Origin: the human T2T-CHM13v2.0 reference genome, Homo sapiens
Reading direction: 5' to 3'
NCBI GenBank assembly: GCA_009914755.4
Contig: CP068257.2
Coordinates: 7,712,001-7,776,000, forward strand
DNA: 64,000 nt
The notes beneath the pieces were generated by a model. The model was not told the origin of the DNA, did not search any database, and saw only the letters and a program-made list of their open reading frames with translations. Each line of letters starts with the position of its first letter. Positions within the stretch are counted from its first letter, which is position 1. The translations under genes and the position numbers were made by a program. This document shows positions 38,731-64,000 of the stretch, in pieces.

Positions 38731-41700
38731 GTTTATTATAAATGTTTGGGTGCTTTCATATTTTATGTACAGTATATAATACATACTTTGGGCACTTTGA
38801 TATTTTATGAAGAGTATATAATACATACTTTGGGTACTTTCATATTTTATGTACAGTATATAATACATACTTTGGGTACTTTGATATTTTATGTACAGTA
38901 TGTAATATATAGTTTGTGTACTTCGATATTTTATATACAGTATATAATGTATATTTTGTGTACTTGGTATTTTATGTACAGTTTATAATATATAGTTTCG
39001 GTAGTTTGATATTTTATGTACAGTACATAATATATAGTTTCGGTAGTTTGATATTTTATGTACAGTATGTAATATATAGTTTGGGTAATTTAATATTTTA
39101 TGTACAGTATACAATATATAGTTTGGGTACTTTGATATTTTATGTACAGTATATAATATATATTTTGGGTACTTTGATATTTTATGTGCAGCGTATAATA
39201 TACAGTTTGGGTACTTTGATATTTTATGTACAGTATATAATATACACTTTGGGTAGTTTGTTATTTTATGTACAGTTTATTATAAATGTTTGTGTACTTT
39301 CATAATTTATGTACAGTATAATATACACATTTTGGGTACTTTTATATTTTATGTACATTATATAATATATATTTGGAGTAATGTGATATTTTATGTACAG
39401 AATAATATATATATATTTGATATACCTTCATATTTTATGTACAGTATATAATATACACTTTGGGTACTTTGATATTTTATGTACAGTATATAATATATAC
39501 TTTGGGTACTTTGATATTTTATGTGCAGCATATAATATACAGTTTGGGTACTTTGATATTTTATGTACAATATACAATATACAGTTTGGGTAGTTTTTTT
39601 ATGTACAGTTTATTATAAATGTTTGGGTACTTTCATAATTTATGTACAGTATATTATACATATTTTGGGTACTTTGATATTTTATGTACAGTATATAATA
39701 CATACTTTGGGTACTTTGATATTTTATGTGCATCATATAATATATATTTGGTGTACTTTCATATTTTATGTACAGAATATAATATATTTTGATGTACTTT
39801 CATATTTTATATACAGTATGTAATATATATTTGGGCGACCTTAATATATTATGTACTGTATATAATATATATTTGCGTGACTTTAATATATTATGTACAG
39901 TATATATTTTGGTGTACTTTGATATTTTCTGTAGAGAATATAATATATATTTGATGTACCTTCATATTTTATGTACAGTACATAATATATATTTTGAGTA
40001 ATTTGATATTTTATGTACAGTATATAATATACAGTTTGGGTACTTTGATATTTTATGTACTGTATAGAATATATAGTTTGAGTACTTTGTTATTTTATGT
40101 ACAGTTTATTATAAATGTTTGGGTACTTTCATAATTTATGTACAGTATATTATACATATTTTGGGTACTTTGATATTTTATGTACAGTATATAATACATT
40201 CTTTGTGTAATTTGATATTTTATGTACAGTGTATAACATATATTTGGTGTACTTTGATATTTTATGTACACTATATAATACATACTTTGGGTACTTTGAT
40301 ATTTTATGTACATTATATAATATATATTTTGTGTACTTTGATATTTTATGTACAGTATATAATATATATTGGGAGGAATTTAATATATTATCTACAGTAT
40401 ATAATATGTTTTGTTGTACTTTGATATTTTATGTGCAGCATATAATATATATTTGGTGTACTTTCAGATTTTCTGTACAGAATATAATATATATTTGATG
40501 TAACTTCATATTTTATGTACACTATATAATATATATTTGGGTGACCTTATTATATTAAGTACAATATATAAAATATATTTGGGCGGCTTTAATATATTAT
40601 GTACAGTATATAATATGTTTTGGTGTACCTTGATATTTTATGTACAGGATATAATATATATTGGATGTACCTTCATATTTTATGTACAGTACATAATATA
40701 TATTTTGGGTACTTTGATATTTTATGTACAGTATATAATATACAGTTTGGGTACTTTGATATTTTATGTACTGTATAGAATATATAGTTTGAGTACTTTG
40801 TTATTTTATGTACAGTTTATTATAAATGTTTGGGTACTTTCATAATATATGGACCGTATATTATACATATTTTGGGTACTTTTATATTTTATGAACAGTA
40901 TATAATATATATTGGGAGTAATGTTATATTTTATGTATAGAATAATATATATATCTGATATACCTTCATATTTTATGTACAGTATATAATATACAGTTTG
41001 GGTACTTTGATATTTTATGTACAGTATATAATATTTACTTTGGGTACTTTGATATGTTATGTGCAGCATATAATATACAGTTTGTGTACTTTGATATTTT
41101 ATGTACAATATATAATATACAGTTTGGGTAGTTTGTTATTTTATATACAGTTTATTATAAATGTTTGGGTACTTTCATGATTTATGTACAGTATATTATA
41201 CATATTTTGGGTACTTTGATATTTTATGTACAGTATATAATACATACTTTGGGTACTTTGATATTTTATGTGCATCATATAATATATATTTGGTTTACTT
41301 TCAGATTTTATGTACAGAATATAATATATATTTGATGTACTTTCATATTTTATATACAGTATGTAATATATATTTGGGCGACCTTAATATATTATGTACA
41401 GTATATAACATATATTTGGGCGAGTTTAATATATTAGTTACAGTATATATTTTGGTGTACTTTGATATTTTAAGTACAGAATATAATATATATTTGATGT
41501 ACCTTCATATTTTATGTACAGTGCACAATATATATTTCGGGTACTTTGATATTTCATGTACAGTATATAATATACAATTTGGGTACTTTGATATTTTATG
41601 TACAGTATAGAATATATAGGTTGAGTACTTTGTTATTTTATGTACAGTTTATTATAAATGTTTGGGTACTTTCATAATTTATGTACAGTATATTATACAT

Positions 41701-44700
41701 ATTTTGGTTACTTTGATATTTTATGGACAGTATATAATATATATTTGGGGTAATGTGATATTTTATGTACAGAATAATATATATATTTGATGTACCTTCA
41801 TATTTTATGTACAGTATATAATATATACTTTGGGTACTTTGATAATTTATGTACAGTATATAATATATAGTTTGGGTACTTTTATATTTTATGTGCAGCA
41901 TATTATATACAGTTTGGGTACTCTGATATTTTATGTACAGTATATAATATACAGTTTTGGTAGTTTGTAGTTTTATGTACAGTTTATTATAAATGTTTGG
42001 GTACTTTCATAATTTATGTACAGTATATTATACATACTTTGCGTACTTTGATATTTTATATACTGTATATAATATATATATGTTATAATGTGATATTTTA
42101 TGTACAGAATAATATATATATTTGTTGTACCTTCATATTTTATGTACAGTATATAATATATAGTTTGGGTACTCTGATATTTTATGTACAGTATATAATA
42201 TATATTTGGTTTAATGTGATATTTTATGTACAGAATAATATATATATTGGATGTACCTTCATATTTTATGTACAGTATATAATAAATACTTTGGGTACTT
42301 TGATATTTTATGTACAGTATATAATATATACTTTGGGTACTTTGATATTTTATGTGCAGCATAAAATATACAGTTTGGGTACTTTGATATTTTATGTACA
42401 GTAAGTAATATACAGTTTGGGTAGTTTGTTATTTTATGTACAGGTTATTATAAATGTTTGGGTACTTTCATAATTTATGTACAGTATATTCTACATATTT
42501 TGGGTACTTTGATATTTTATGTACAGTATATAATACATACTTTGGGTACTTTGATATTTTATGTGCAGCATATAACATATATTTGGGGTACTTTCAGATT
42601 TTTTGTACAGAATATAATATATATTTGATATACCTTCATATTTTATGTACAGTGTATAATATATATTTGGGCGACCTTAATATATTATGTACAGTATATA
42701 ATATATTTTGGTGTACTTTGATATTTTATGTACAGAATATAATATATATTTGATGTACCTTCGTATTTTATGTACAGTACATAATATATATTTTGGGTAC
42801 TTTGATATTTTATGTACAGTATATAATATACAGTTTGGGTATTTTGATATTTTATGTAATGTATAGAACATATAGTTTGAGTACTTTGTTATTTTACGTA
42901 CACTTTATTATAAATGTATGGGTAATTTCATAATTTATGTACAGCATATGATACATATTTTGGGTACTTTGACATTTTATGTACAGTATATAATACATAC
43001 TTTGGGTAATTTGATATTTTTTGTACAGTATATAATATATATTTGGTGTAATTTGATATTTTATGCACAGTATATAATAGATACTTTGGGTACTTTGATA
43101 TTTTATGTACAGTATATAATATATATTTTGGGTACTTTGATATTTTATGTACAGTATATAAAAAATTCTTTGGGTAATTTGATATTTTATGTACAGTATA
43201 TAATATATATTTGGTGTAATTTGATATTTTATGTACAGTATATAATACATGCTTTGTGAAGTTTGATATTTTATGTACAGTAAATAATATATATTATGGG
43301 TACTTTGATATTTTATGTACAGTATATAATATGCAGTTTGGGTACTTTGATATTTTATGTACAGTGTATAATATATACTTTCAGTACTTTGTTATTTTAT
43401 GTACAGTTTATTATAAATGTTTGGGTACTTTTATAATTTATGAACAGTATATTATACATATTTAGGGTACTTTGATATTTTATGTACAGTATATAATGCA
43501 TACTTTGGTTACTTTGATATTTTATGTGCAGCATATAGTATATATTTGGAGTACTTTCAGATATTATGTACAGAATATAATATATATTTGATGTACCTTC
43601 ATATTTTATGTACAGTATATAATATATATTTGGGCGACCTTAATATGTTATGTACAGTATATAATATATATTTGGTGTACTTTAATATTTAATGTACAGA
43701 ATAAAATATATATTTGATGTACCTTCATATTTTATGTACAGTACATAATATATATATTGGGTACTTTGATATTTTATGTACAGTATATAATATACAGTTT
43801 GGGTACTTTTATATTTTATGTACTGTATAGAATATATAGTTTGAGTACTTTGTTATTTTATGTACAGTTTATTATAAATGTTTGGGTACTTTCATAATTT
43901 ATGTACAGTATATTATACATATTTTGGGTACTTTTATATTTTATGGACAGTATATAATATATATTTGTTGTAATGTGATATTTTATGTACAGAATGATAT
44001 ATATATACTTGATGTACCTTCATATTTTTGGTACAGTATATAATATATACTTTGGGTACTTTGATATTTTATGTACGGTATATAATATATCCTTTGGGTA
44101 ATTTGATATTTTATGTGCAGAATATAATAAACAGTTTGGATACTTTTATATTTTATGTACAGTATATAATATACAGTTTGGGTAGTTTGTTATTTTATGT
44201 ACAGTTTATTATAAATGTTTGGGTACTTTCATAAATTATATGCAGTATATTATACATATTTTGGGTACTTTGATATTTTATGTACAGTATATAATATACA
44301 GTTTGGGTACTTTGATATTTTATGTACTGTAGAGAATATATAGGTTGAGTACTTTGTTATTTTATGTATAGTTTATTATAAATGTTTGGGGAGTTTCATA
44401 ATTTATGTACAGTATATTATACATATTTTGGTTACTTTGATATTTTTTGTACAGTATATAAAACATACTTTGGGTAATTTAAAATTTTATGTACAGTATA
44501 TAATATATATTTGGTGTAAATTGATATTTTATGTACAGTATATAATACATACATTGCATACTTTTATATTTTATATAGAGTATATAATATATATTTTGGG
44601 TAGTTTGATATTTTATGTACAGTATATAATACAGAGTATGGGTACTTTGATATTTTATGTACAGTGTATAATATATAGTTTGAGTACTTTGTTATTTTAT

Positions 44701-47700
44701 GTACAGTTTATTATAAATTTCTGGGTACTTTCATAATTTATGTACAGTATATTATACATATTTAGGGTACTTTGATATTTTATGTACAGTATATAGTACA
44801 TACTTTGGGTATTTTGATATTTTATGTGCAGCATATAGTATATATTTGGTGTACTTTCAGATTTTATGTACAGAATATAATATATATTTGATGTACCTTC
44901 ATATTTTATGTACAGTATATAATATATACTTTGGGTACTTTGATATTTTATGTACCGTATATAATATACAGTTTGGGTACTTTGATATTTTATGTACAGT
45001 ATATAATATATAGTTTGAGTACTTTGTTATTTTATATACAGTTTATTATAAATGTTGGGGTACTTTCATAATTTATGTACAGTATATTATACATATTTTG
45101 GGTACTTTGTTATTTTATGTACAGTATATAATATATATTTGGTGTAATGTGATATTTTTTGTACAGTAAGTAATACATACTTTGGGTACTTTGATATTTT
45201 ATGTACAGTATATAATATATATTTTGTGTACTTTGATATTTTATGTACAGTATATAATATACAGTTTGGGTACTTTGATATTTTATGTACAGTATATAAT
45301 ATATAGTTTGAGTACCTTGTTTTTTTATGTACAGTTTATTATAAATGTTTGGGTACTTTCATAATTTATGTACAGTATATTATACATATTTTTGTACTTT
45401 GATATTTTATGTACAGTAGATAATATATATTTGGTTTAATGTGATATTTTATGTACAGAATACTATATATATTTGATTTACCTTCATATTTTAGGTACAG
45501 TATATAATATATACTTTGGGTACTTTGATATTTTATGTACAGTATATAATATATATTTTCGTACTTTGATATTTTATGTGCAGCATATAATATACAGTTT
45601 GGGTACTTTGATATTTTATGTACAGTATATAATATATAGTGTGAGTACTTTGTTATTTTATGTACAGTTTATTATAAATGTTTGGGTACTTTCATAATTT
45701 ATGTACAGTATATTATACATACTTTGGGTTCTTTGATATTTTATGTACTGTATATAATATATATTTCTTATAATGTGATATTTTATGTACAGAATAATAT
45801 ATATATTTGATGTACCTTCATATTTTATGTACAGTGTATAATATATATTTTGGGTACTCTGATATTTTATGTACAGTATATAATATATATTTGATGTACC
45901 TTCATATTTTATGTACAGAACTTATATATTTTGGATACTTTGATATTTTATGTACAGTATATAATATACAGTTTGGGTACTTTGATATTTTATTTACTGT
46001 AGAGAATATATAGTTTGAGTACTTTGTTATTTTATGTACAGTTTATTATAAATGTTTGGGTACTTTCATAATTTATGTACAGTATATTATACATATTTTG
46101 GGTACTTTGATATTTTATGTACAGTTTATAATACATACTTTGGGTAATTTAATATTTTATGTACAGTATGTAATATATATTTCGTGTAATTTGATATTTT
46201 ATGTACAGTATATAATACATACTTTGGGTACTTTTATATTTTATATACAGTATATAATATATATTTTGGGTAGTTTGATATTTTATGTACAGTATATAAT
46301 ACTCAGTTTGGGTACTTTGATATTTTATTTACAGTGTATAATATATAGTTTGAGTACTTTGTTATTTTATGTACAGTTTACTATAAATTTCTGGGTACTT
46401 TCATAATTTATGTACAGTATATTATACATATTTAGGGTACTTTGATAGTTTATGTACAGTATATAGTACATACTTTGGGTACTTTGATATTTTATGTGCA
46501 GCATAGAGTATATATTTGGAGTTCTTTCAGATTTTATGTACAGAATATAATATATATTTGATGTACCTTCATATTTTATGTACAGTATATAATATATACT
46601 TTGGGTACTTTGATATTTTATGTACAGTATATAATATACAGTTTGGGTACTTTGATATTTTATGTACTGTATAGAATATATAGTTTGCGTACTTTGTTAT
46701 TTTATGTACAGTTTATTATAAATATTTGGGTATTTTCGTAATTTATGTTCAGTATACTATGCATATTTTGGGTACTTTGATATTTTATGTACAGTATATA
46801 ATATATATTTGGTGTAATGTGATATTTTATGTACAGAATAATATATTTATTTGATGTACCTTCATATTTTATGTACAGTATGTAATATATACTTTGGGTA
46901 CTTTGATATTTTATGTACAGTATATAATATATACTTTGCGTACTTTGATATTTTATGTTCAGCGTATAATATACAGTTTGGGTACTTTGATATTTTATGT
47001 ACAGTATATAATATACAGTTTGGGTAGTTTGTTATTTTATGTACAGTTTATTATAAATGCTTGGGTACTTTCATAATTTATGTAGAGTATATTATAAATA
47101 TTTTGTGTACTTTGATATTTTATGTATAGTATATAATACATACTTTGGGTAATTTGATATTTTATGTACAGTATATAATATATATTCGGTGTAATTTGAT
47201 ATTTTATGTACAGTATATAATACATACTTTGGGTACTTTGATATTTTTTGTGCAGCATATAACATATATTTTGTGTACTTTCAGATTTTATTTACAGAAT
47301 ATAATATATATTTTATGTACCTTCATATTTTATGTACAGTATATAATATATATTTTGGTGACCTTAATATATTATGTATAGTATATAATATATATTTGGG
47401 TGACTTTAATATATTATGTACAGTATATAATATATTTTGGTGTACTTTGATATTTTATGTACAGAATATAATATATATTTGATGTACCTTCATATTTTAT
47501 GTACATTATATAATATACATTTGGGGGACCTTAATATATTATGTACAGTATATAATATATATTTGGGCGACTTTAATATATTATGTACAGTATATATTTT
47601 GGTGTACTTTGATATTTTATGTACAGTATATAATATATATTTGATGTACCTTCATATTTTATGTACAGTACATAATATATATTATGGGTACTTTGATATT

Positions 47701-50700
47701 TTATGTACAGTATATAATATACAGATTGGGAACTTTGATATTTTATGAACAGTATATGATATATAGTTTGAGTACTTTGTTATTTTATGTAGTTTATTTG
47801 AAATATTTGGGTACTTTCATAATTTAGGTACAGTATATTATACATATTTTGTGTACTTTGATATTGTATGTACAGTATATAATACATACTTTGGGTACTT
47901 AGATATTTTATGTGCAGCATATAACATATATTTGGTGTACTTTCATATTTTATGTACAGAATATAATATATATTTGATGTACCTTCATATTTTATGTACA
48001 GTATATAATATATATTTGGGCGAACTTAATATATTACGTACAGTATATAATATATATTTGGGTGACTTTAATATATTATGTAGAGTATATAATATATTTT
48101 GGTGTACTTTGATAATTTCTGTACAGAATATAATATATACTTGATGTACCTTCATATTTTATGTACAGTATATAATATATATTTCGGATAATTTGATATT
48201 TTATGAACAGTATATAATATAGAGTTTGGTTACTCTGATATTTTATGTACTGTATAGAATATATAGTTTGAGTACTTTGTTATTTTAGGTACAGTTTATT
48301 ATCAATGTTTGGGCACTTTCATAATTTATGTACAGTATATTATACATATTTTGGGTACTTTGATATTTTATGTACAGTATATAATACATACTTTGGGTAA
48401 TTTGATATTTTATGTACAGTATATAATATATATTTGGTGTAGTTTTATATTTTTTGTACAGGAAATAATATATACTTTTGGTACTTTGATATTTTAAGTG
48501 CAGCGTATAATATACAGTTTGGGTACTTTGATATTTTATGTACCGTATATAATATACCGTTAGGGTACTTTGATATTTTATGTACTGTATAGGATATATA
48601 GTTTGGTACTTTGTTATTTTATGTACACTTTATTATAAATGTTTGGGTACTTTCATAATTTATGTACAGTATATTATACATATTTTGGGTACTTTGATAT
48701 TTTATGCACAGTATATAATATATATTTGGTGTAATTTGATATTTTATGTACAGTATATAATAAATAATTTGGGTACTTTGATATTTTATGTACAGTATAA
48801 AATACATACTTTGGGTAATTTGATATTTTATGTACAGTATATAATATATATTTTTCCATACTTTGATATTTTATGTACAGTATATAATATACAGTTTGAG
48901 TACTTTGATATTTTATGTACAGTACATAATATATAGTTTGAGTACTTTGTTATTTTCTGTACAGTTTATTATAAATGTTTGGGTACTTTCATAATTTATA
49001 TACAGGATATTATATATATTTTGTGTACTTTGATATTTTATGTACAGTATATAATGTATATTTGGTGTAATGTGATATTTTATGTACAGAATAATATATA
49101 TATTTGATGTACCTTCCTATTTTATGTACAGTATATAATATATACGTTGGGTACTTTGATATTTTATGTACAGTATATTATATATACTTTGGGTACTTTG
49201 ATATTTTATGTGCAGCGTATAATATACAGTTTGGGTACTTTGATATTTTATGTACAGTGTATAATATACAGTTTGGGTAGTTTGTTATTTTATGTACAGT
49301 TTATTATAAATGTTTGGGTACTTTCATAATTTATGTACAGTATTTTATACATATTTTGGGTACTTTGATATTTTATGTACAGTATATAATACATACTTTG
49401 GGTAATTTGATATTTTATGTGCAGCATATAACATATATTTGGCGTACTTTCAGATTCTATGTACAGAATATAAAATATATTTGATGTAACTTCATATTTT
49501 ATGTACAGTATGTAATATATATTTGGGAGAACTTAATATATTATGTACAGTATATAATATGTATTTGGGTGACTTTAATATATTATGTACAGTATATAAT
49601 ATATTATGGTGTACTTTGATATTTTATGTACAGAATATAATATATATTTGATGTACCTTCATATTTTATGTACAGTACATAATATATGTTTTTGGTACTT
49701 TGATATTTTATGTACAGTATATAATATACAGTTTGGGTACTTTGATATTTTATATACAGTATATAATATATAGTTTGGGTACTTTATTTTATGTACAGTT
49801 TATTATAAATGTTTGTGTACTTTCATAATTTATGTACAGTATATTATACATATTTTGGGTACTTTGATATTTTATGTACAGTATATAATATATATTTGTT
49901 GTAATTTGATATTTTATGTACAGTATATAATACATACTTTGGGTACTTTGATATTTTATGTACAGTATAAAATACATACTTTGGGTAATTTGATATTTTA
50001 TGTACAGTACATTATACATATTTTGGGTACTTTGATATTTTATGTACAGTATATAATATATACTTTGGGTACTTTGGAATTTTATGTGCAGCATATAATA
50101 TACAGTTTGGGTACTTTGATATTTTATGTACAGTATATAATATACAGTTTGGGCAGTTTGTTATTTTATGGACAGTTTATTATAAATGCTTGGGTACTTT
50201 CATAATTTATGTACAGTATATAATACATATTTTGGGTACTTTGATATTTTATGTGCAGCATATAACATATTTGGTGTACTTTCAGATTTTATGTACAGAA
50301 TATAATAAATATTTTATGTACCTTCGTATTTTATGTACAGTATATAATATATATTTGGGAGACCTTAATATATTATGTACAGTATATAACATATATTTGG
50401 GCGACTTTAATATATTATGTACAGTATATAATATATTTTGGTGTACTTTGATATTTTATGTACAGAATATAATATATATTTGATGTACCTTCATATTTTA
50501 TGTACAGTACATAATATATATTTTCGGTACTTTGGTATTTTATGTACACTATATAATATAGAATGTGGGTAATTTGATATTTTATGTACAGTATATAATA
50601 TATACTTTGGGTACTTTGTTATTTTATGTACAGTTTATTATAAATGTTTGGGTACTTTCATAATTTATGTACAGTATATTATACATATTTTGGGTACTTT

Positions 50701-53700
50701 GATATTTTATGTACAGTATATAATATATATTTTGTGTAATTTGATATTTTATGTACAGTATATAATACATACTTTGGGTACTTTGATATTTTATGTACAG
50801 TATAAAATACAAACTTTAGGTAATTTGATATTTTATGTACAGTATATAATATATATTTGGCATAGTTTGATATTTTATCTACAGTATATAATAAATACTT
50901 TGGGTACTTTGATATTTTATGTACAGTATATAATATATAATTTGGGTACTTTGATATTTTATGTACAGTATATAATATACAGTTTGAATACTTTGTTATT
51001 TTATGGACAGTTTATTATAACTGTTTGGATACTTTCATAATTTATATACAGTATATTATATATATTTTGGGTACTTTGATATTTTATGTACAGTATATAA
51101 TATATAGTTTGAGTACTTTGTTATTTTATGTACAGTTTATTATAAATGTTTGGGTACTTTCATAATTTATATACAGTATATTATACATACTTTGGGTACT
51201 TTGATATTTTATGTACAGTATATAATATGTAGTTTGGTTACTTTGATATTTTATGTACAGCATATAATATATATTTTCGGTACTTTGATATTTTATGTAC
51301 AGTATATAATATACAGTTTGAGTACTTTGATATTTTATGTACAGAATATAATATATAGTTTGAGTACTTTGTTATTTTATGTACAGTTTATTATAAATGT
51401 TTGGGTACTTTCATAATTTATATACAGTATATTATACATATTTTGGGTTCTTTGATATTTTATGTACACTATATAATATATATTTGGTGTAATGTGATAT
51501 TTTATGTACAGAATAATATATATATTTGATGTACCTTCATATTTTATGTACAGCATATAATATATACTTTGGGTACTTTGATATTTTATGTACAGTATAT
51601 TATATATACTTTGGGTCCTTTGATATTTTATGTGCAGCATATAATATACAGTTTGGGTACTTTGATATTTTATATACAGTGTATAATATACAGTTTGGGT
51701 AGTTTGTTATTTTATGTACAGTTTATTATAAATATTTGGGTACTTTCATAATTTATGTAGAGTGTATTATACATATTTTGGGTACTTTGATATTTTATGT
51801 ACAGTATATAATACATACATTGGGTACCTTGTTATTTTATGTGCAGCATATAACACATATTTGGTGTACTTCCAGATTTTATGTACAGAAGATAAAATAT
51901 ATTTGATGTACCTTCATATTTTATATACAGTATATAATATATATTTGGGCGACCTTTATATATTATGTACAGTATATATTATATATTTGCGTGACTTTAA
52001 TATATTATGTACAGTATATAATATATTTTGGTGTACTTTGATATTTTATGTACAGAATATAATATATATTTTATGTACCTTCATATTTTATGTACAGTAC
52101 ATAATATACATTTTGGGTAATTTGATATTTTATGTACAGTATATAATATAAAGTTTGGGTACTTTGATATTTTATATACTGTAAAGAATATATAGTTTGA
52201 GTACGTTGATATTTTATGTACAGTTTATTATAAATGTTTGGGTACTTTCATAATTTATGTACAGTATATTATACATATTTTGGGTACTTTGATATTTTAT
52301 GTACAGTATATAATACATACTTTGGGTACTTTGATATTTTATGTGCAGCATATAACATATATTTGGTGTACTTTCAGATTTTATGTACAGAATATAATAT
52401 ATATTTGATGTACCTTCATATTTTATGTACAGTGTATAATATATATTTGGGCGACCTTAATATATTATATACAGTATATAATATCTATTTGGGCAACTTT
52501 AATATATTACGTACAGTATATAATATATTTTGGTGTACTTTGATATTTTATGTAGAGAATATAATATATATTTGATTTACCTTCATATTTTATGTACCAT
52601 GCATAATATATATTTTGGGTACTTTGATATTTTATGTACAGTATATAATATACAGTTTGGGTACTTTGATATTTTATGTACTCTATAGAATATATAGTTT
52701 GAGTACTTTGTTATTTTATGTACAGTTTACTATAAATGTTTGGGTACTTTCATAATTTATGTACAGTATATTATACATAATTTGGGTACTTTGATATTTT
52801 ATGTGCAGCATGTAATATATATTTGGTGTACTTTCAGATTTTATGTACAGAATATAATACATACTTTGGGTACTTTGATATTTTATGAACAGTATATAAT
52901 ATATATTTTGGGTACTTTGATATTTTATGTACAGTATATAATATACAGTTTGGGGACTTTGATATTTTATGTACCGTATATAACATATAGTTTGAGTACT
53001 TTGTTATTTTATGTACAGTGTATTATAAATGTTTGGGTACTTTCATAATTTATGTACAGTATATTATACATATTTTGGGTACTTTGATATTTTATGTACA
53101 GTATATAATACATACTTTGGGTACTTTGATATTTTATGTGCTGCATATAACTTATATTTGGTGTACTTTCAGATTTTATGTACAGAATATAATATATATT
53201 TGATGTACCTTCATATTTTATGTACAGTGTATAATATATATTTGGGCAAACTTAATATACTATGTACAGTATATAATATATATTTGGGCGACTTTAATAT
53301 ATTACGTACAGTATATAATATATTTTGGTGTACTTTGATATTTTATGTACAGAATATAATATGTATTTGATGTACCTTCATATTTTATGTACAGTGCATA
53401 ATATATATTTTGGGTACTTTGATATTTTATGTACAGTATATAAGATACAGTTTGGGTACTTTGATATTTTATGTACTGTATAGAATATATAGTTTGAGTA
53501 CATTGTTATTTTATGTACAATTTATTATAAATGTTTGGGTACTTTCATAATTTATGTACAGTATATTAGACATATTTTGGGTACTTTGATATTTTATGTA
53601 CAGTATATAATATACAGTTTGGGTACTTTGATATTTTATGTGCAGCATGTAATATATATTTGGTGTACTTTCAGATTTTGTTTACAGAATATTATACATA

Positions 53701-56700
53701 CTTTGGGTACTTTGATATTTTATGAACAGTATATAATATATATTTTGGGTACTTTGATATTTTATGTACAGTATATAACATACAGTTTGGGTACTTTGAT
53801 ATTTTATATACAGTATATAATATACAGTTTGAGTACTTTGTTATTTTATGTACAGTTTATTATAAATGTTTGGGTATATTCGTAATTTATGTACAGTATA
53901 TTATGCATATTTTGGGTACTTTGATATTTTATGTACAGTTTATAATATATATTTGGTGTAATGTGATATTTTATGTACAGAATAATATATATATTTGATG
54001 TACCTTCATATTTTATGTACCGTATGTAATATATACTTTGGGTACTTGGATATTTTATGTACAGTATATAATATATACTTTGCGTACTTTGATATTTTAT
54101 GTGCAGCGTATAATATACAGTTTGGGTACTTTGATATTTTATGTACAGTATATAATATACAGTTTGGGTAGTTTGTTATTTTATGTACAGTTTATTATAA
54201 ATGCTTGGGTACTTTCATAATTTATGTACAGTATATTATACATATTTTGGGTACTTTGATATTTTATGTACAGTGTATAATACATACTTTGGGTACTTTG
54301 ATATTTTATGTGCAGCATATAACACATATATGGTGTACTTTCAAATTTTATGTACAGAATATAATATATATTTGATGTACCTTCATATGTTATGTACAGT
54401 ATACAGTATATATTTGGGCGACCTTAATATATTATATAGAGTATATAATATATATTTGGGCGACTTTAATATATTACGTACAGTATATTATATATTTCGG
54501 TGTACTTTGATATTTTATGTACAGAATATACTATATATTTGATGTACCTTCATATATAATGTACAGTACATAATATATATTTTGGAGTGTTTGATATTTT
54601 ATGTACAGTATATAATATCCAGTTTGGGTACTATGATATTTTATGTACTGCATAGAATATATAGTTTGAGTACTTTGTTATTTTATGTACAGTTTACTAT
54701 AAATGTTTGGGTACTTTCATAATTTATGTACAGTATATTATGCATATTTTGGGTACTTTGATATTTTATGTACAGTATATAATACATACTTTGTGTACTT
54801 TGATATTTTATGTGCAGCATATAACATATATTTGGTGTACTTTCAGATTTTATGTACAGAATATAATATATATTTGATGTACCTTCATATTTTATGTACA
54901 GTGTATAATATATATTTGGGCGACCTTAATATATTATGTACAGTATATAATATATATTTTGGCGACTTTAATATATTACATACATTATATAATATATTTT
55001 GGTGTACTTTGATATTTTATGTACAGAATATAATATATATTTGATGAACCTTCATATTCTATGTACAGTGCATAATATATATTTTGGGTAATTTGATATT
55101 TTATGCACAGTATATAATGTACAGTTTGGGTACTTTGATATTTTATGTACTGTATAGAATATATAGTTTGAGTACTTTGTTATTTTATGTACAGTTTACT
55201 TTAAATGTTTGGGTACTTTCATAATTTATGTACAGTATATTATACATATTTTGGGTTCTTTGATATTTTATGTACAGTATATAATACATACTTTGGGTAA
55301 TTTGATATTTTATGTGCAGCATGAAATATATATTTGGTGTACTTTCAGATTTTATGTACAGAATATAATACATACTTTTGGTACTTTAATATTTTAGGAA
55401 CAGTATATAATATATATTTTGGGTACTTTGATATTTTTATGTACAGTATATAATATACAGTTTGGGTACTATGATATTTTATGTACAGTATATAATATAT
55501 AGTTTGAGTACTTTGTTATTTTATGTACAGTTTATTATAAATGTTTGGGTACTTTCATAATTTATGTACAGTATATTATACATATTTTGGGTATTTTGAT
55601 AATTTATGTACAGTATATAATATATATTTAGTGTAATTTGATATTTTATGTACAGTATATAATACATACTTTGGGTACTTTGATATTTTATGTACAGGAT
55701 AAAATACATACTTTGGGTAATTTGATTTTTTATGTACAGTATATAATATATATTTGGCGTAGTTTGATATTTTATGTACAGTATATAATATATATTTGGT
55801 GTAATGTGATATTTTATATAGAGAATAATATGTATATTTGATGTACCTTCATATTTTATGTACAGTATGTAATATATACTTTGAGTACTTTGACATTTTA
55901 TGTACAGTATATAATATATACTTTGGGTACTTTGATATTTTATGTGCAGCGTATAATATACAGTTTGGGTACTTTGATATTTTATGTCCAGTATATAATA
56001 TACAGTTTGGGTCGTTTGTTATGTTATGTACAGTTTATTATAAATGTTTGGGTACTTTCATAATTTATGTACAGTATATTATACATATTTTGGGTACTTT
56101 GATATTTTATGTACAGTATATAATACATACTTTGGGTACTTTGATATTTTATGTGCAGCATATAACATATATTTGGTGTACTTTCAGATTTTATGTACAG
56201 AATATAATATATATTTGATGTACCTTCATATTTTATGTACAGAATATAATATATATTTGGGTGACCTCAATATATTATGTACAGTATATAATATATATTT
56301 GGGTGACCTTAATATATTATATACAGTATATAATATATATTTGGGCGACTTTAATATATTATGTACAGTATATAATATATTTTGGTGTACTTTGATATTT
56401 TATGTACAGAATATAATATATATTTGATATACCTTCATATTTTATGTACAGTGCATAATATATATTTTGGGTACTTTGATATTTTATGTACAGTATATAA
56501 GATACAGTTTGGGTACTTTGATATTTTATGTACTGTATAGAATATATAGTTTGAGTTCTTTGTTATTTTATGTACAGTTTACTAAAAATGTTTGGGTACT
56601 TTCATAATTTATGTACAGTATATTATACATATTTTCGGTACTTTGATATTTTATGTACAGTATATAATACATACTTTGTGTAATTTGATATTTTATGTAC

Positions 56701-59700
56701 AGTATATAATATATATTGGGTGTAATTTGATATTTTATGTACACTATATAATACATACTTTGGGTACTTTGATATTTTATGAACAGTATATAATATATAT
56801 TTTGGGTACTTTGATATTTTATGTACAGTATATAATATATAGTTTGAGCACTTTGTTATTTTATGTACAGTTTATTATAAAAGTTTGGGTACTTTCATAA
56901 TTTATGTATAGTATATTAGACATATTTTGGGTACTTTAATATTTTATGTACAGTATATAATATATATTTGGTGTAATGTGATATTTTATGTACAGAATAA
57001 TATATATATTGGATGTACCTTCATATTTTATGTACAGTACATAATATATATTTTGGGTACTTTGATATTTTATGTACAGTATATAATATAGAGTTTGGGT
57101 ACTTTGATATTTTATGTGCAGCGTATAATATACAGTTTGGGTACTTTGATATTTTATGTACAGTATATAATATACAGTTTGGGTAGTTTGTTATTTTATG
57201 TACAGTTTATTATAAATGTTTGGGTACTTTCATAATTTATGTACAGTATATTATACATATTTTGGGTACTTTGATATTTTATGTACAGTATATGATACAT
57301 ACTTTGGGTACTTTGATATTTTATGGGCAGCATATAACATATATTTGGTGTACTTTCAGATTTTATGTACAGAATATAATATATATTTGATGTACATTCA
57401 TATTTTATGTAAAGTATATAATATATATTTGGGCGACCTTAATATATTATGTACAGTATATAAAATATATTTGGTGTGATGTGATATTTTATGTACAGAA
57501 TAATATATATATTTGATGTACCTTCATATTTTATGTACAGTATGTAATATATACTTTGGGTACTTTGACATTTTATGTACAGTATATAATATATACTTTG
57601 GGAACTTTGATATTTTATGTGCAGCATATAATATACAGTTTGGGTACTTTTATATTTTATGTACAGTATATATTATACAGTTTGGGTAGTCTGTTATTTT
57701 ATGTACAGTTTAGTATAAATGTTTGGGTACTTTCATAATTTATGTACAGTATATTACGCATATTTCGGTACTTTGATATTTTATGTACAGTATATAATAC
57801 ATAATTTGGGTACTTTGATATTTTATGTGCAGCATATAACATATATTTGGTGTACTTTCAGATTTTATGTACAGAATATAATATATATTTGATGTACCTT
57901 CATATTTTATGTACAGTGTATAATATATATTTGGGCGACCTTAATATATTATGTACAGTATATAATATATATTTGGGCGACATTAACATATTATGTACAG
58001 TATATAATATATTTTGGTGTACTTTGATATTTTATGTACAGAATATAATATATATTTGATGTACCTTCATATTTTATGTACAGTACATAATATATATTTT
58101 GGGTACTTTGATATTTTATGTACAGTATATAATATACATTTTGGGAACTTTGATATTTTATGTACTGTATAGAATATATAGTTTGAGCACTTTGTTATTT
58201 TATGTACAGTTTACTATAAATGTTTGGGTACTTTCATAATTTATGTACAGTATATTATACATATTTTGTGTACTTTGATATTTTATGTACAGTATATAAT
58301 ACATACTTTGGGTAATTTGATATTTTATTTACAGTATATAATATATATTGGGTGTAATTTGATATTTTATGTACAGTATATAATACATACTTTGGGTACT
58401 TTGATATTTTATGAACAGTATATAATATATATTTTGGGTACTTTGATATTTTATGTACAGTATATAATATATAGTTTGAGCACTTTGTTATCTTTGTTAT
58501 TTTATGTACAGTTTATTATAAATGTTTGGGTACTTTCATAATTTATGTATAGTATATTAGACATATTTTTGGTACTTTAATATTTTATGTACAGTATATA
58601 ATATATATTTGGTGTAATGTGATATTTTATGTACAGAACAATATATATATTTGATGTACCTTCATATTTTATGTACAGTATGTAATATATACTTTGGGTA
58701 CTTTGATATTTTATGTACAGTATGTAATATATACTTTGGGTACTTTGATATTTTATGTGCAGCGTATAATATACAGTTTGGGTACTTTGATATTTTATGT
58801 GCAGCGTATAATATACAGTTTGGGTACTTTGATATTTTATGTACAGTATATAATATACAGTTTGGGTAGTTTGTTATTTTATGTACAGTTTATTATATAT
58901 ATTTGGGTACTTTCATAATTTATGTACAGTATATTATACATATTTTGGGTACTTTGAAATTTTATGTACAGTATATAATACATACTTTGGGTACTTTGAT
59001 ATTTTATGTGCAGCATATAACATATATTTGGTGTACTTTCAGATTTTATGTACAGAATATAATATATATTTGATGTACCTTCATATTTTATGTACAGTGT
59101 ATAATATATATTTGGGCGACCATAATATATTATGTACAGTATATAATATATATTTGGGCGAGTTTAATATATTACGAACAGTATATATTTCGGTGTACTT
59201 TGATATTTTATGTACAGAATATAATATATATTTGATGTACCTTCATATTTTATGTACCCTATATAATATATACTTTGTGTACTTTGATATTTTCTGTACA
59301 GTATATAATATATACTTTGGGTACTTTGATATTTTATGTACTGTATAGAATATATAGTTTGAGTACTTTGTTATATTATGTACAGTTTATTATAAATGTT
59401 TGGGTACTTTCATAATTTATGTACAGTATATTATACATATTTTGGGTACTTTGATATTTTATGTACAGTATATAATACATACTTTGGGTACTTTGATATT
59501 TTATGGGCAGCATATAACATATATTTGGTGTACTTACGGATTTTATGTACAGAATATAATACATATTTTATGTACCTTCATATTTTATGTACAGTATATA
59601 ATATATATTTGGGCGACCTTAATATATTATGTACAGTATATAATATATATTTGGGTGACTTTAATATATTATGTACAGTATATAATATATTTTGGTGTAC

Positions 59701-60054
59701 TTTGATATTTTATGTACAGAATATAATATATATTTGATGTACCTTAATATTTTATGTACAGTACATAATATATATTTTGGGTACTTTGATATTTTATGTA
59801 CAGTATATAATATATATTTGGTGTAATGTGATATTTTATGTACAGAATAATATATATATTTGATGTACCTTCATATTTTATGTACAGTATATAATATATA
59901 CTTTGGGTACTTTGATATTTTATGTACTGTATATTATATAGACTTTGGGTACTTTGATATTTTATGTGCAGCGTATAATATACAGTTTGGGTACTTTGAT
60001 ATTTTATGTACAGTGTATAATATACAGTTTGGGTAGTTTGATATTTTATGTACA

Positions 60055-62065
60055 ATTTATTATAAATGTTTGGGTACTTTCATAATTTATGTACAGTATA
60101 TTATACATATTTTGGGTACTTTGATATTTTATATACAGTACATACTACAAACTTTGGGTAATTTGATATTTTATGTACAGTATATAATATATATTTGGTG
60201 TAGTTTGATATTTTATGTACAGGGTATAATACATACTTTGGGTACTTTGATATTTTATGTACAGTATACAATATATATTTTGGGTACTTAGATATTTTAT
60301 GTACAGTATATAATACATACTTTGTGTAATTTGATATTTTATGTGCAGCATATAACATATATTTGATGTACATTCATTTTTTATGTACAGAATATAATAT
60401 ATATTTGATGTACCTTCATATTTTATGTACAGTATATAATATAAATTTGGGCGACCTTAATATATTATGTACGGTATATAATATATATTTGTGCGTCTTT
60501 AATATATTATGTATAGTATATAATATATTTTGGTGTACTTTGATATTATATGTACAGAATATAATATATATTTGATGTACCTTCATATTTTATGTACAGT
60601 ACATAATATATATTTTGGGAAATTTGATATTTTATGTTCAGTATATAATATACAGTTTGGGTACTTTGATATTTTATGTACTGTATAGAATATATAGTTT
60701 GAGTACTTTGTTATTTTATGTACAGTTTATTATAAATGTTTGGGTACTTTCATAATTTATGTAGAGTATATTATACATATTTTGGGTACTTTGATATTTT
60801 ATATACAGTATATAATACATACTTTGGGTAATTTGATATTTTATGTACAGTATATAATATATATTTGGTGTAGTTTGATATTTTATGTACAGGGTATAAT
60901 ACATACTTTGGGTACTTTGATATTTTATGTACAGTATAGAATATATATTTTGGGCACTTTGATATTTTATGTACAGTATATAATACATACTTTGGGTACT
61001 TTGATATTTTATGTGCAGCATATAACATATATTTGGTGTACATTCATTTTTTATGTACAGAATATAATATATATTTGATGTACCTTCATATTTTATGTAC
61101 AGTATATAATATAAATTTGGGCGACCTTAATATATTATGTACGGTATATAATATATATTTGTGCGACTTTAATATATTATGTATAGTATATAATATATTT
61201 TGGTGTACTTTGATATTTTATGTACAGAATATAATATATATTTGATGTACCTTCATATTTTATCTACAGTACATAATATATATTTTGGGTAATTTGATAT
61301 TTTATGTACAGAATATAATATACAGTTTGGGAACTTTGATATTTTATGTATTGTATAGAATATAGAGTTTGAGTACTTTGTTATTTTATGTACAGTTTAT
61401 TATAAATGTTTGAGTACTTTCATAATTTATGTACAGTATATTATACATATTTTGGGTACTTTGATATTTTATGTACAGTATATAATACGTACTTTGGGTA
61501 ATTTGATATTTTATGTACAGTATATAATATATATTTGGTGTAGTTTGATATTTTATGTACAGGATATAATACATACTTTGGGTACTTTGATATTTTATGT
61601 ACAGTATATAATATACATTTTGGGTACTTTGATATTTTATGTACAGTATATAATATACAGTTTGGGTACTTTGATATTTTATGTACAGTATATAATATAT
61701 AGTTTGAGTACTTTGTTATTTTATGTACAGTTTATTATAAATGTTTGTGTACTTTCAAAAATTATGTACAGCATATTATACATATTTTGGGTACTTTGAT
61801 ATTTTATGTACAGTATATAATACATACTTTGGGTACTTTGATATTTTCTGTGCAGCATATAATATATATTTGGTGTAATTTCAGATTTTATGTACAGAAT
61901 ATAAAATATGTTTCATGTACCTTCATATTTTATGTACAGTATATAATATATATTTGGGCGACCTTAATATATTATGTACAGTATATAATATATTTTGGTG
62001 TACTTTGATATTTTATGTACAGAATATAATATACATTTGATGTACCTTCATATTTTATGTACAGT
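60055..62065 (-). repeat. Three tandem, nearly identical copies of a 16-monomer (670 bp) HSat1A HOR
   Basis: The marker sits at 60055, 60725 and 61395 (exactly 670 bp apart). Lines 60061-60720 and 60721-61380 differ by only a handful of substitutions (for example cagtacatactacaaactttggg vs cagtatataatacatactttggg; gcgtctttaat vs gcgactttaat). Confidence 0.8.
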
Positions 62066-64000
62066 ACATAATATATATTTTCGCTACTTTGATATTTTAT
62101 GTACAGTATATAATATACAGTTTGGGTACTTTGATATTTTATGTACAGTATATAATAAATAGTTTGGGTACTTTGTTATTTTATGTAAAGTTTATTATAA
62201 ATGTTTGGGTACTTTCATAATTTATGTACAGTATATTATATATATTTTGGGTACTTTGATATTTTATGTACAGTATATAATATATATTTGGTTTAATTTG
62301 ATATTTTATGTACAGGATATAATACATACTTTGGGTACTTTGATATTTTATGTACAGTATAAAATACATACCTTGGGTAATTTGATATTTTATGTACAGT
62401 ATATAATATATATTTGGCGTAGTTTGATAATTTATGTACAGTATATAATACATACTTTGGGTAATTTGATATTTTATGTACAGTATATAATATATATTTT
62501 GGGTACTTTGATATTTATGTACAGTATATAATATACAGTTTGAGTACTTTGATATTTTATGTACAGTATATAATATATAGTTTGAGTACTTTGTTATTTT
62601 ATGTACACTTTATTATAAATGTTTGGGTACTTTCATGATTTATATACAGTATATTATACATACTTTGGGTACTTTGATATTTTATGTACAGTATATAATA
62701 TATATTTGGTGTAATGTGATATTTTATGTACAGAATAATATATATATTTGATGTACCTTCATATTTTATGTACAGAATGTAATATATACTTTGGGTACTT
62801 TGATATTTTATGTACATTATATAATATATACTTTGGGTACTTTGATATTTTATGTGCAGCATATAATATACAGTTTGGATACTTTGATATTTTATGTACA
62901 GTATATACTATACTCTTTGGGTAGTTTGTTATTTTATGTACAGTTTATTTTAAATGTTTGGGTACTTTCATAATGTATGTACAGTATATTATACATATTT
63001 TGGGTACTTTGATATTTTATGTACAGTATATAATACATACTTTGGGTACTTTGATATTTCATGTGCAGCATATAACATATATTTGGTGTACTTTCAGATT
63101 TTATGTACAGAATATAATATATATTTGATGTACCTTCATATTTTATGTACAGTATATAATATATATTTGGGCGACTTTAATATATTATGTACAGTATATC
63201 ATATATTTTGGTGTACTTTGATATTTTATGTACAGAATATAATATATATTTGATGTACCTTCATATTTTATGTACAGAATATAATATATATTTGATGTAC
63301 CTTCATATTTTATGTACAGTAGATGATATATATTTTGGGGAATTTGATATTTCATGTACAGTATATAATATACAGTTTGGGTACTTTGATATTTTATGTA
63401 CTGTATAGAATATATAGTTTGAGTACGTTATTATCTTATGTACAGTTTATTATAAATGTTTGGGTACTTTCATAATTTATGTACAGTATATTATACATAT
63501 TTTGGGTACTTTGATATTTTATGTACAGTATATAATACATACTTTGGGTACTTTGATATTTTATGTGCAGCATATAACATATATTTGGTGTACTTTCAGA
63601 TTTTATGTACAGAATATAAAATATATTTGATGTACCTTCATATTTTATGTACAGTATATAATATATATTTGGGCGACCTTAATATATTATGTACAGTATA
63701 TAATATATATTTGTGCGACTTTAATATATTATGTACAGTATATAATATATTTTGGTGTAGTTTGATATTTTATGTACAGAATATAATATATATTTGATGT
63801 ACCTTCATATTTTATGTACAGTACATAATATATATTTTGCGTAATTTGATATTTTATGTTCAGTATATAATACACAGTTTGGGTACTTTGATATTTTATG
63901 TACTGTATAGAATATATAGTTTGAGTACGTTGTTATTTTATGTACAGTTTATTATAAATGTTTGGGTACTTTCATAATTTATGTACAGTATATTATACAT

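What the first reader, a model, noticed from the sequence alone, without database searches (positions are those of the whole stretch)
52224..60055. Two interleaved HSat1A higher-order repeat types (12-mer ~502 bp and 8-mer ~335 bp) built from distinct monomer sets
Marker spacings in this stretch are 501, 293, 501, 336, 335, 502, 502, 336, 504, 543, 293, 335, 503, 501, 302, 377, 497 and 670 bp.

The 12-mer type contains a characteristic monomer series: ...gtgcagcatataacatat / ggtgtactttcagatttt / gatgtaccttcatatttt..gtgtataat / gggcgaccttaat / gggcgactttaatatattacgtac / ggtgtactttgatattttatgtacagaatat / gatgtaccttcat...gtacataat / ...atacag / tactgtatagaatatatag / tttgagtactttgttatttt.

The 8-mer type uses a different set: ggtgtaatgtgatattttatgtacagaataatatatatat / gatgtaccttcat / ...gtgcagcgtataatatacag / ...gggtagtttgttatttt.

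The two types alternate in a semi-regular way and sometimes fuse, as in the 670-bp unit at 59,385 (12-mer-type front plus 8-mer-type back). Classical satellite I is usually described simply as a 42-bp A+B repeat. An explicit multi-monomer HOR grammar with two interleaved HOR families suggests a super-HOR organisation that, to my knowledge, is not well documented for this satellite.
Basis: seen in the sequence. Interest (0 to 1): 0.55.

Follow-up and report, generated by a model that had tools for sequence, protein, structure and literature searches.

The report
Mosaic higher-order repeats in HSat1A satellite
This stretch is ordinary human-type 42-bp satellite DNA (HSat1A) whose monomers really are arranged in recurring 12-, 8- and 7-monomer blocks; the blocks look like recombination variants of one repeat family, and higher-order structure in this satellite has been reported before.

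Summary
Monomers within a unit are only ~80% alike, and the order is far from random.

The interpretation needs correcting:
- There are at least four recurrent unit types, not two.
- Length does not equal type. Only 2 of the 4 335-bp units and 6 of the 8 ~502-bp units in the flagged stretch are canonical.
- The types share their first, last and two other monomers. The "private" monomers L, M and J are close derivatives of E, G and H/C, and intermediates are present.
- Deletion, duplication and fusion variants sit at register shifts between look-alike monomers, which is the signature of unequal exchange.
- Unit order is non-random (II followed by I, P about 0.001), but there is no fixed super-period.

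HORs in HSat1A are already published: 378-bp 9-mers on chr13 and a 2.97-kb HOR. This is a local variant at the array edge beside HSat3, probably on an acrocentric short arm. Interest is low.

The parts
18..17200 (+). Context: (AATGG)n HSat3-like array
   Evidence: TRF period 5, 3436 copies. GC 0.41. 167 matches to CAACCCGAGTGGAATGG with up to 2 mismatches, all inside this block.
17197..27846 (-). 42-bp HSat1A-type satellite in inverted orientation, monomeric with no HOR. A 44-bp variant period dominates near 24.2-27.8 kb.
   Evidence: TRF. No lag peaks beyond 42/84. Only ~79.5% identical to the plus block. Lag-44 identity 0.69-0.71 in the 24197 and 26197 windows.
27847..27905 (.). Junction between the minus- and plus-oriented satellite blocks (inversion breakpoint)
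   Evidence: Skew sign change. TRF array ends. Sequence read.
27906..39288 (+). HSat1A plus orientation, poorly ordered. Isolated HOR-like units only.
   Evidence: Lag 293-502 identity 0.43-0.47. No 6-class word seen 3 times or more. Class strings.
39289..63960 (+). HOR mosaic domain. Every unit starts with monomer D and ends with F/Q. It runs off the window end.
   Evidence: Class strings. Conditional entropy 1.57 vs 3.47 bits shuffled.
52237..52738 (+). Type I 12-mer DBHEGKPE.CIQ
52739..53031 (+). 7-mer DHEACAF (type I front plus type III back)
53032..53533 (+). Type I 12-mer DBHEGKPEGCIF (canonical)
53534..53868 (+). 8-mer DCH.ACCF (I/III recombinant type, not the L-M-J type)
53869..54203 (+). 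Type II 8-mer DALMAJCF (canonical)
54204..55207 (+). Two type I 12-mers (DBHEGKPAGCIQ, DBHEGKPEGCIQ)
55208..55543 (+). 8-mer DBHEACAF (type I front plus type III back)
55544..56046 (+). 12-monomer hybrid DANBAALMAJCF (type III front plus type II back)
   Evidence: The same unit order appears in independent contig L001 at 97.3% identity.
56047..56590 (+). 13-mer DBHEGOOPEGCIF (type I with one extra K/P-class monomer)
56591..56883 (+). Type III 7-mer DBANAAF
56884..57218 (+). Type II 8-mer DALACJCF
57219..57721 (+). 12-monomer hybrid DBHEGKLMAJCQ (type I monomers 1-6 plus type II monomers 3-8)
57722..58222 (+). Type I 12-mer DBHEGKPEGAIQ
58223..58524 (+). Type III 7-mer DBANAAF
58525..58901 (+). 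Type II 9-mer DALMAJJC. (J duplicated)
58902..59398 (+). Type I 12-mer DBHEGK.AGAIF
59399..60068 (+). 16-mer fusion DBH.GKOEG|ALMAJCF. It equals type I followed by type II with the four boundary monomers C-I-F-D missing.
60069..61408 (+). Two 16-mers DBAN(S/A)BH(G/E)GKOEGCIF. Each equals type III followed by type I with four boundary monomers missing.
   Evidence: The 670-bp offset self-match is 95.4% over 1117 bp.

Best explanation
The flagged stretch lies inside a 42-bp, 78% A+T classical satellite I / HSat1A array that abuts an HSat3-type (AATGG)n array. From about 39.3 kb to the end of the window, the monomers form one HOR family present as a mosaic of structural variants.

**Shared frame.** Every unit begins with the same monomer (D, ...CTTTCATAATTT...) and ends with the same monomer (F, ...GAGTACTTTGTTATTTT...TTTATTATAAATG).

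**Main forms.**
- A 12-mer, D-B-H-E-G-K-P-E-G-C-I-F.
- An 8-mer, D-A-L-M-A-J-C-F.
- A 7/8-mer, D-B-A-N-A-(C)-A-F.
- A recombinant, D-(B)-H-E-A-C-A-F.

**Mechanism (inferred, not observed).**
1. Repeated out-of-register (unequal) exchange or gene conversion occurs between look-alike monomers at different positions. This adds or removes whole monomers and fuses neighbouring units.
2. Blocks of one to four units are then duplicated locally. This spreads particular variants and particular neighbour orders (II then I; III-II-I).
3. Homogenisation weakens towards the array edge, so the part nearest the HSat3 junction and the inverted block remain monomeric.

No coding or structured-RNA role is implied. 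The HOR grammar is a by-product of how tandem arrays turn over.
For: **Shown: the units are HORs.**
- Copies of a unit are far more alike than monomers within it. Type I copies are 93.6% identical (66 pairs), type II 93.9% (28 pairs), and monomers within a unit are 79-81% identical.

**Shown: the types share a frame.**
- Type I vs type II consensus monomers differ by 0, 2, 1 and 2 mismatches at monomer 1, monomer 2, C and the last monomer.
- L is 4 mismatches from E, M is 3 from G, and J is 3 from H and from C.
- Intermediates DREGAJC(F), with E-G where type II has L-M, sit at 39289 and 43881.

**Shown: register-shift products at predictable places.**
- Type I contains an internal duplication: m4 vs m8 differ by 2 mismatches, m5 vs m9 by 1, and K vs P by 2-5.
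- Deleted by 4 monomers: 8-mers DBHEGCIF (33743, 46389) and DBHEGCAF (44720).
- Deleted by 1 monomer (K/P): 11-mers DBHEG(K|P)EGCIF (42457, 43420, 61744).
- The reciprocal gains are also present: a 13-mer DBHEGOOPEGCIF (56047) and an 18-mer carrying an extra K.EG block (47060).
- Fusions lose exactly the boundary monomers (59399, 60069, 60739, 55544) or swap halves (57219).

**Shown: block duplication.**
- 0.9-1.6 kb colinear self-matches occur at 91-95% identity, at offsets of 670, 1674, 1670, 2424, 11223 bp and others.
- Three of the four type I copies ending in Q (52237, 54706, 57722) differ by only 19-21 of 504 positions.

**Shown: gradient towards the edge.**
- Lag-502 identity is 0.43 at 28-40 kb, 0.51 at 40-52 kb, 0.59 at 52-60 kb and 0.70 at 60-64 kb.
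- The inverted block shows no HOR signal.

**Shown: independent sequence.**
- Metagenome contig L001 recodes as .KPEGCIF|DBH.ACAF|DANBAALMAJCF|D. It matches window 54895-56090 over its full length at 97.3%, with the next best place at 91.1%.
- L002 uses the same monomer alphabet in a different arrangement.

**Context.** In CHM13 all five acrocentric short arms carry hsat3(B4) directly followed by hsat1(HSat1A).
Against: - No exchange event is observed directly, so the mechanism rests on reciprocal products and established theory of tandem-array evolution.
- Direction cannot be polarised. The 12-mer could be an expansion of an 8-mer, or the 8-mers could be deletions of the 12-mer.
- Four of the eight type II monomers are still 3-6 mismatches from their type I counterparts. 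A separate, older origin for the two units, followed by mixing, is not excluded.
- Monomer classes rest on 42-bp units that differ at only a few positions. About 7.5% of monomers (65 of 865) stayed unclassified.
- The permutation tests ignore relatedness by duplication.
- I could not map the window to a reference genome, so species, chromosome and the acrocentric placement are inferences.
Confidence: 0.78

Rival explanations
1. A true super-HOR. The amplified unit is a fixed multi-unit block, for example III-II-I at about 28 monomers (1172 bp) or a 39-40-monomer block. The two or three HOR types are separate families kept interleaved because the large block is what is copied.
For: - Unit order is non-random: II>I occurs 12 times vs 6.3 expected (P = 0.0008), and III>II>I occurs 4 times vs 0.83 (P = 0.005).
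- There are minor peaks at 1172 bp in the autocorrelation (0.571) and in the k-mer interval spectrum.
- There are two-copy blocks at offsets of 1674 bp (94.7% over 1066 bp) and about 1632 bp, and three consecutive 670-bp 16-mers.
- L001 keeps the same three-unit order.
Against: - There is no dominant super-period. The longest colinear self-matches are 0.9-1.6 kb and are spread over dozens of offsets.
- TRF with periods up to 2000 reports only 42, 293 and 335 bp.
- Multi-unit matches are no more identical (91-95%) than single-unit copies (about 94%).
- The types are not independent families: they share a frame and have intermediates.
- No block recurs more than 2-3 times in tandem.
Confidence: 0.15
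2. Assembly artefact. Reads from two different HSat1A arrays, one of 12-mers and one of 8-mers, were interleaved by mis-assembly.
For: HSat1A arrays on acrocentric arms are hard to assemble and are shared between chromosomes (PMC9909926). I have no read-level data.
Against: - An independent contig (L001) reproduces a I-tail / DBHEACAF / DANBAALMAJCF / D junction series at 97.3% identity.
- Hybrids join in monomer register, and reciprocal products are present.
- Composition and phase are continuous across all unit boundaries.
Confidence: 0.03
3. Chance recurrence of short markers in a low-complexity AT-rich repeat, with no real ordered series.
For: Monomers differ at only a few positions, so single markers could recur by chance.
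Against: - Shuffling monomer order destroys the pattern: 35 six-class words are seen at least 3 times, vs 0 in 1000 shuffles.
- Conditional entropy is 1.38 bits, against a minimum of 2.69 across the shuffles.
- The spacing excess has P around 1e-10 to 1e-13.
- Full 502-bp units are about 94% identical.
Confidence: 0.01

Closest known systems
HSat1A 378-bp (9-monomer) HOR of the large chr13 array in T2T-CHM13 (Altemose et al., 10.1101/2021.07.12.452052, Fig. S10E; also seen in GM12878 reads, PMC9909926)
   Same: Same satellite family (42-bp monomer, extreme A+T content) and the same phenomenon: monomers organised into multi-monomer HORs detected by k-mer interval periodicity.
   Different: Here the dominant periods are 502 and 335 bp (12 and 8 monomers), with 293 bp as well. 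Nine-monomer units are a minority (6 of 87 intervals, no excess). The published description is a periodicity spectrum, not a monomer-class grammar.
pTRI-6 satellite I subfamily with a 2.97-kb HOR on chr13/21 (Kalitsis et al. 1993, as cited in PMC8125562)
   Same: Satellite I on acrocentric chromosomes with higher-order organisation.
   Different: No 2.97-kb period is seen here. I could not compare sequences because pTRI-6 is not available to these tools.
Alpha-satellite HOR structural variants and hybrid HORs. One example is the CHM13 chr15 array, with 379 copies of the 11-mer S2C15H1L.1-11 and 344 copies of the 4-mer S2C15H1L.1-4 (supplement of 10.1101/2021.07.12.452052).
   Same: - One HOR family is present as two or more abundant length variants mixed in one array.
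- Rarer deletion, duplication and hybrid forms arise by register shifts.
- The array edges are more diverged and monomeric.
   Different: - The monomer is 42 bp, not 171 bp.
- There is no centromere function or CENP-B box.
- Runs of identical units are very short here (at most 2-3), so the array is much less homogenised than active alpha arrays.

Membership tests
HSat1A (classical satellite I, RepeatMasker SAR) | Tandem 42-bp repeat unit | tested here: met
   TRF period 42, 863.7 copies over 27906-63997 and 252.1 copies over 17197-27846. Lag-42 identity 0.74. 668 of 864 chopped monomers are exactly 42 bp.
HSat1A (classical satellite I, RepeatMasker SAR) | [quoted passage not shown] | tested here: met
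   GC 0.205-0.230 across 18-64 kb.
HSat1A (classical satellite I, RepeatMasker SAR) | Sequence match to the SAR/HSat1A consensus, with A (17 bp) plus B (25 bp) subunits | not testable with these tools
   No Dfam or human reference is available here. From memory the consensus ...ACATAAAATATCAAAGT/ACCCAAATATATATTATATACTGT... fits the published A+B units, but that is a recollection, not a test.
HSat1A (classical satellite I, RepeatMasker SAR) | Genomic setting next to HSat3 on acrocentric short arms (CHM13: hsat3(B4) then hsat1(HSat1A) on chr13, 14, 15, 21 and 22) | tested here: inconclusive
   The window has an HSat3-type array (167 CAACCCGAGT-type motif hits) directly abutting the 42-bp satellite at about 17197. 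This matches the annotation order. The window could not be mapped, and the HSat3 subfamily was not determined.
Higher-order repeat (HOR) | Units made of an integer number of monomers, with position-specific monomer types in a fixed order | tested here: met
   Class strings DBHEGKPEGCIF, DALMAJCF and DBANA(C)AF recur. Per-position identity to consensus is 0.86-0.98 for the 12-mer.
Higher-order repeat (HOR) | Identity between unit copies clearly above identity between monomers within a unit | tested here: met
   93.6% and 93.9% between copies, against 79% and 81% between monomers.
Higher-order repeat (HOR) | Long homogeneous head-to-tail runs of the same unit | tested here: not met
   The longest runs of one unit type are 2 copies (type I at 51735/52237, 54204/54706 and 62957/63459; the III+I 16-mer at 60069/60739). 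The three consecutive 670-bp 16-mers are of two types (I+II, then 2x III+I). The array is a mosaic.
Super-HOR (regular higher level of repetition above the HOR) | A fixed multi-unit period that dominates the array | tested here: not met
   Many offsets and none dominant. TRF with periods up to 2000 finds none. The 1172-bp peak is minor.
Super-HOR (regular higher level of repetition above the HOR) | Non-random order of unit types | tested here: met
   II>I 12 vs 6.3 expected, P = 0.0008. III>II>I 4 vs 0.83 expected, P = 0.005. The test ignores relatedness by duplication.
Super-HOR (regular higher level of repetition above the HOR) | Super-unit copies more alike than unit copies in general | tested here: not met
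   Multi-unit matches are 91-95% identical, against a unit-copy mean of about 94%. The nearest neighbours of type I copies do not follow super-block positions.

The most novel reading that the evidence does not exclude
The distal edge of the acrocentric HSat1A arrays, next to HSat3, may carry its own HOR family that differs from the published 9-mer of the chr13 bulk array. It would consist of 12-, 8- and 7-monomer variants with a preferred cyclic unit order III-II-I. That unit order would be conserved between individuals or between heterologous acrocentric arms, as hinted by contig L001 at 97.3% identity with identical unit order. It could then serve as a fine-scale marker of exchange between acrocentric short arms and of array-edge dynamics.
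Probability: 0.25. Interest if true: 0.35.

Novelty: new member of a known kind. Interest (0 to 1): 0.2.

Why it matters
It matters little beyond description. If the 12/8/7-monomer grammar proves specific to one array edge or one set of chromosomes, its monomer classes would give ready-made markers. The type-specific 20-mers GGGCGACCTTAATATATTAT and GGTGTAATGTGATATTTTATG are examples. Such markers could track unequal exchange, heterologous recombination between acrocentric short arms, and de novo deletions in HSat1A, which pedigree studies now observe (10.64898/2025.12.16.694519). The window also gives a clean small-monomer example of reciprocal register-shift products, useful for testing HOR-calling software that was tuned on 171-bp alpha satellite.

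Tried and rejected
- **Loose marker threshold.** A first attempt to define units by edit distance of 5 or less to the marker monomer was too loose: it gave 209 "markers". I dropped it in favour of the 31-mer boundary marker.
- **TRF.** TRF with maximum period 2000 did not resolve the 502-bp or larger periods, because units of different length are mixed. The default run reported 293 bp.
- **Recent palindromic duplication.** I tested whether the inverted block 17197-27846 is a recent palindromic copy of the adjacent plus block. It is not: identity is about 79.5% to every part of the plus block, which is monomer-level similarity only.
- **Distance effect.** I tested whether physical distance predicts divergence between type I copies. 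The effect is weak and not significant (Spearman 0.21, P = 0.089).
- **Literature and database look-ups that failed.**
  - The published Science version (PMC9233505) is not held.
  - A viral-contig scan for the K marker found nothing.
  - No paper mentions the VNIW01 accession.
- **HSat3 long period.** A long-lag autocorrelation of the HSat3 block was uninformative because indels break the 5-bp frame.
- **Searches not run.** I ran no protein, RNA-family or structure searches. The region is a non-coding AT-rich satellite with no long ORF rationale.


Full report
**Layout of the window.** Three satellite blocks fill the window.
- Positions 18-17200 are an (AATGG)n array with GC 0.41. It carries 167 copies of the CAACCCGAGT-type motif, all within this block. 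From my own knowledge, that motif is typical of human satellite 3.
- At about 17197 it changes abruptly to a 42-bp satellite of 78-79% A+T, read on the minus strand up to 27846.
- After a roughly 60-bp junction, the same satellite runs on the plus strand from 27906 to the end of the window.

The 42-bp period and the composition meet two defining features of HSat1A (classical satellite I, "SAR"). The consensus itself could not be compared with Dfam using these tools.

In the CHM13 satellite annotation, all five acrocentric short arms carry hsat3(B4) directly followed by hsat1(HSat1A). The window is therefore most likely that boundary on chr13, 14, 15, 21 or 22. This is an inference, because no human reference was available.

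Across the plus array, 8-monomer and 12-monomer spacings occur 25 and 18 times in 87 intervals. Random placement would give 4.2 and 2.7 (P = 2.5e-13 and 2e-10).

In the flagged stretch:
- Autocorrelation peaks at 293/335, 502/544, 795/837 and 1172 bp.
- A k-mer interval spectrum built like NTRprism peaks at 42, 502, 335, 167 and 293 bp.

**Monomer decomposition.**
- I cut the plus array into 865 monomers with a wrap-around alignment and clustered them by Hamming distance without using the marker.
- I then recoded the array as a class string.

The order is far from random. In 52224-60055 the conditional entropy of the next class is 1.38 bits, against 2.88 +/- 0.05 after shuffling. Thirty-five six-class words recur at least three times, against none in 1000 shuffles.

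Twelve canonical 12-mers are on average 93.6% identical to each other, and eight canonical 8-mers 93.9%. Monomers inside a unit are only 79-81% alike. That is the standard criterion for a higher-order repeat.

First, the structure is not limited to the flagged coordinates.
- It starts near 39.3 kb and runs off the window end.
- The 28-39 kb part and the inverted block are essentially monomeric.

Second, there are more than two unit types.
- D-B-A-N-A-(C)-A-F (7 or 8 monomers) recurs at 45055, 48642, 56591, 58223, 61409 and elsewhere.
- D-(B)-H-E-A-C-A-F recurs at 52739, 53534 and 55208.

Third, length class is not type.
- In the flagged stretch only two of the four 335-bp units are the L-M-J type.
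- Two of the eight ~502-bp units are hybrids: 55544 (DANBAALMAJCF) and 57219 (DBHEGKLMAJCQ).

Fourth, the monomer sets are not distinct.
- Types I and II share the first monomer exactly.
- Three more monomers differ by only 1-2 mismatches.
- L, M and J are 3-4 mismatches from E, G and H/C.
- Units with E-G in place of L-M (DREGAJCF) survive at 39289 and 43881.

**How it most likely arose.** The 12-mer contains an internal duplication: monomers 4-5 are nearly identical to monomers 8-9 (2 and 1 mismatches), and K resembles P. The variants found are exactly those expected from misaligned exchange at these look-alike positions.

| Variant | Positions | Reading |
|---|---|---|
| 8-mers DBHEGCIF / DBHEGCAF | 33743, 46389, 44720 | four monomers lost between the two E-G pairs |
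| 11-mers with a single K/P monomer | 42457, 43420, 61744 | one monomer lost at K/P |
| 13-mer with an extra K/P-class monomer | 56047 | reciprocal gain of one monomer |
| 18-mer with an extra K.EG block | 47060 | reciprocal gain of a four-monomer block |

The "fusions" are two adjacent units minus the four boundary monomers:
- 59399 is I+II.
- 60069 and 60739 are III+I.
- 55544 is III+II.

The unit at 57219 is instead a half-and-half swap.

Finding both deletion and duplication products at the same registers is the classical signature of unequal crossing-over or gene conversion in a tandem array. The events themselves are inferred, not observed.

Local block duplication is visible as 0.9-1.6 kb colinear self-matches at 91-95% identity. 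It is also visible as a subgroup of type I copies ending in the Q variant: 52237, 54706 and 57722 differ at only 19-21 of 504 positions, and 54204 also ends in Q but is more diverged (31-35 of 504).

Homogeneity rises with distance from the HSat3 junction. Lag-502 identity goes 0.43, 0.51, 0.59 and 0.70 across successive segments. This is the usual edge effect of satellite arrays.

**The super-HOR question.** Unit order is not random. Type II is followed by a type I front in 12 cases against 6.3 expected (P = 0.0008). The triad III-II-I occurs 4 times against 0.83 expected (P = 0.005).

There is nevertheless no regular higher period.
- Self-matches are spread over many offsets and none dominates.
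- TRF allowed periods up to 2000 bp and reports only 42, 293 and 335 bp.
- Multi-unit matches are no more identical than single-unit copies.
- The nearest relatives of each 12-mer do not track block position.

The preferred orders are best read as the footprint of a few two- to four-unit duplications, not as a defined super-HOR.

**Independent sequence.** A scan of public metagenome contigs for a type I-specific 20-mer returned two short contigs.
- L001 recodes as .KPEGCIF|DBH.ACAF|DANBAALMAJCF|D. It aligns over its full length to window 54895-56090 at 97.3%, with the next best place at 91.1%.
- L002 uses the same monomer alphabet in another arrangement, including a II-front/I-back hybrid DALMAEGCIF.

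These contigs are presumably host DNA in a metagenome. They show that the grammar, and even a specific three-unit order, exists outside this assembly. That argues against an assembly artefact.

**Comparison with what is known.**
- The T2T-CHM13 centromere study states that NTRprism "discovered new HORs in HSat1". It shows the large chr13 HSat1A array organised into 378-bp units.
- Lopes et al. found the same 9-mer in GM12878 long reads.
- A 2.97-kb satellite I HOR is cited from 1993.
- Mixed length variants of one HOR within an array are routine in alpha satellite. One example is 379 11-mers and 344 4-mers of S2C15H1L on CHM13 chr15.

I found no paper giving the 12/8/7-monomer grammar described here. 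Nine-monomer units are not enriched in this window. This is therefore a locally different HOR variant of a known kind, not a new kind of organisation.

**Verdict.** The feature is a mosaic of structural variants of one HSat1A HOR family at an array edge, generated by unequal exchange and local duplication. It counts as a new member of a known kind, and interest is low (0.2).

Noticed in passing
window 27846-27906: This is a strand-switch (inversion) junction between minus- and plus-oriented HSat1A blocks, with about 60 bp of out-of-phase AT-rich sequence between them. The two arms are not a recent palindrome. The minus block is only about 79.5% identical to any part of the plus block.
   Followed up: partly
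window 24197-27846 (minus block): Close to the inversion junction the satellite shifts to a 44-bp variant period. Lag-44 identity is 0.69-0.71 against lag-42 identity of 0.54-0.56. Further from the junction (18-21 kb) the period is the normal 42 bp.
   Followed up: partly
window 18-17200: The HSat3-type array shows recurring constellations of the CAACCCGAGT-type motif at kilobase offsets. For example 8658/8723/8753 recur as 12438/12498/12528, and 9428/9528/9558 recur as 13203/13293/13323, about 3.78 kb apart. This suggests a nested kb-scale repeat. A simple autocorrelation could not confirm it because of indels.
   Followed up: partly
window 17190-17200: The HSat3-to-HSat1A transition is abrupt, within about 10 bp (…ggaatagaaaggaatgaaatatcaaagtac…). 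There is no spacer or transposon.
   Followed up: no
L001 1-1194 (VNIW01011067.1) and L002 1-1677 (VNIW01006455.1): Two metagenome-assembly contigs are pure HSat1A with the same monomer classes. L001 matches window 54895-56090 at 97.3% with identical unit order. L002 holds a hybrid not seen in the window (DALMAEGCIF). They are probably host DNA contamination.
   Followed up: yes
window 52237, 54204, 54706, 57219, 57722 (last monomer of each unit): A local sub-haplotype of units ends in the Q variant of the last monomer (…TTTACTATAAATG instead of …TTTATTATAAATG). Three of these type I copies differ by only 19-21 of 504 positions.
   Followed up: partly
window 40000-63997: A 167-bp (4-monomer) sub-period is the fourth strongest k-mer interval peak. 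It is explained by the E-G…E-G internal duplication of the 12-mer and by the 4-monomer length difference between unit types.
   Followed up: partly
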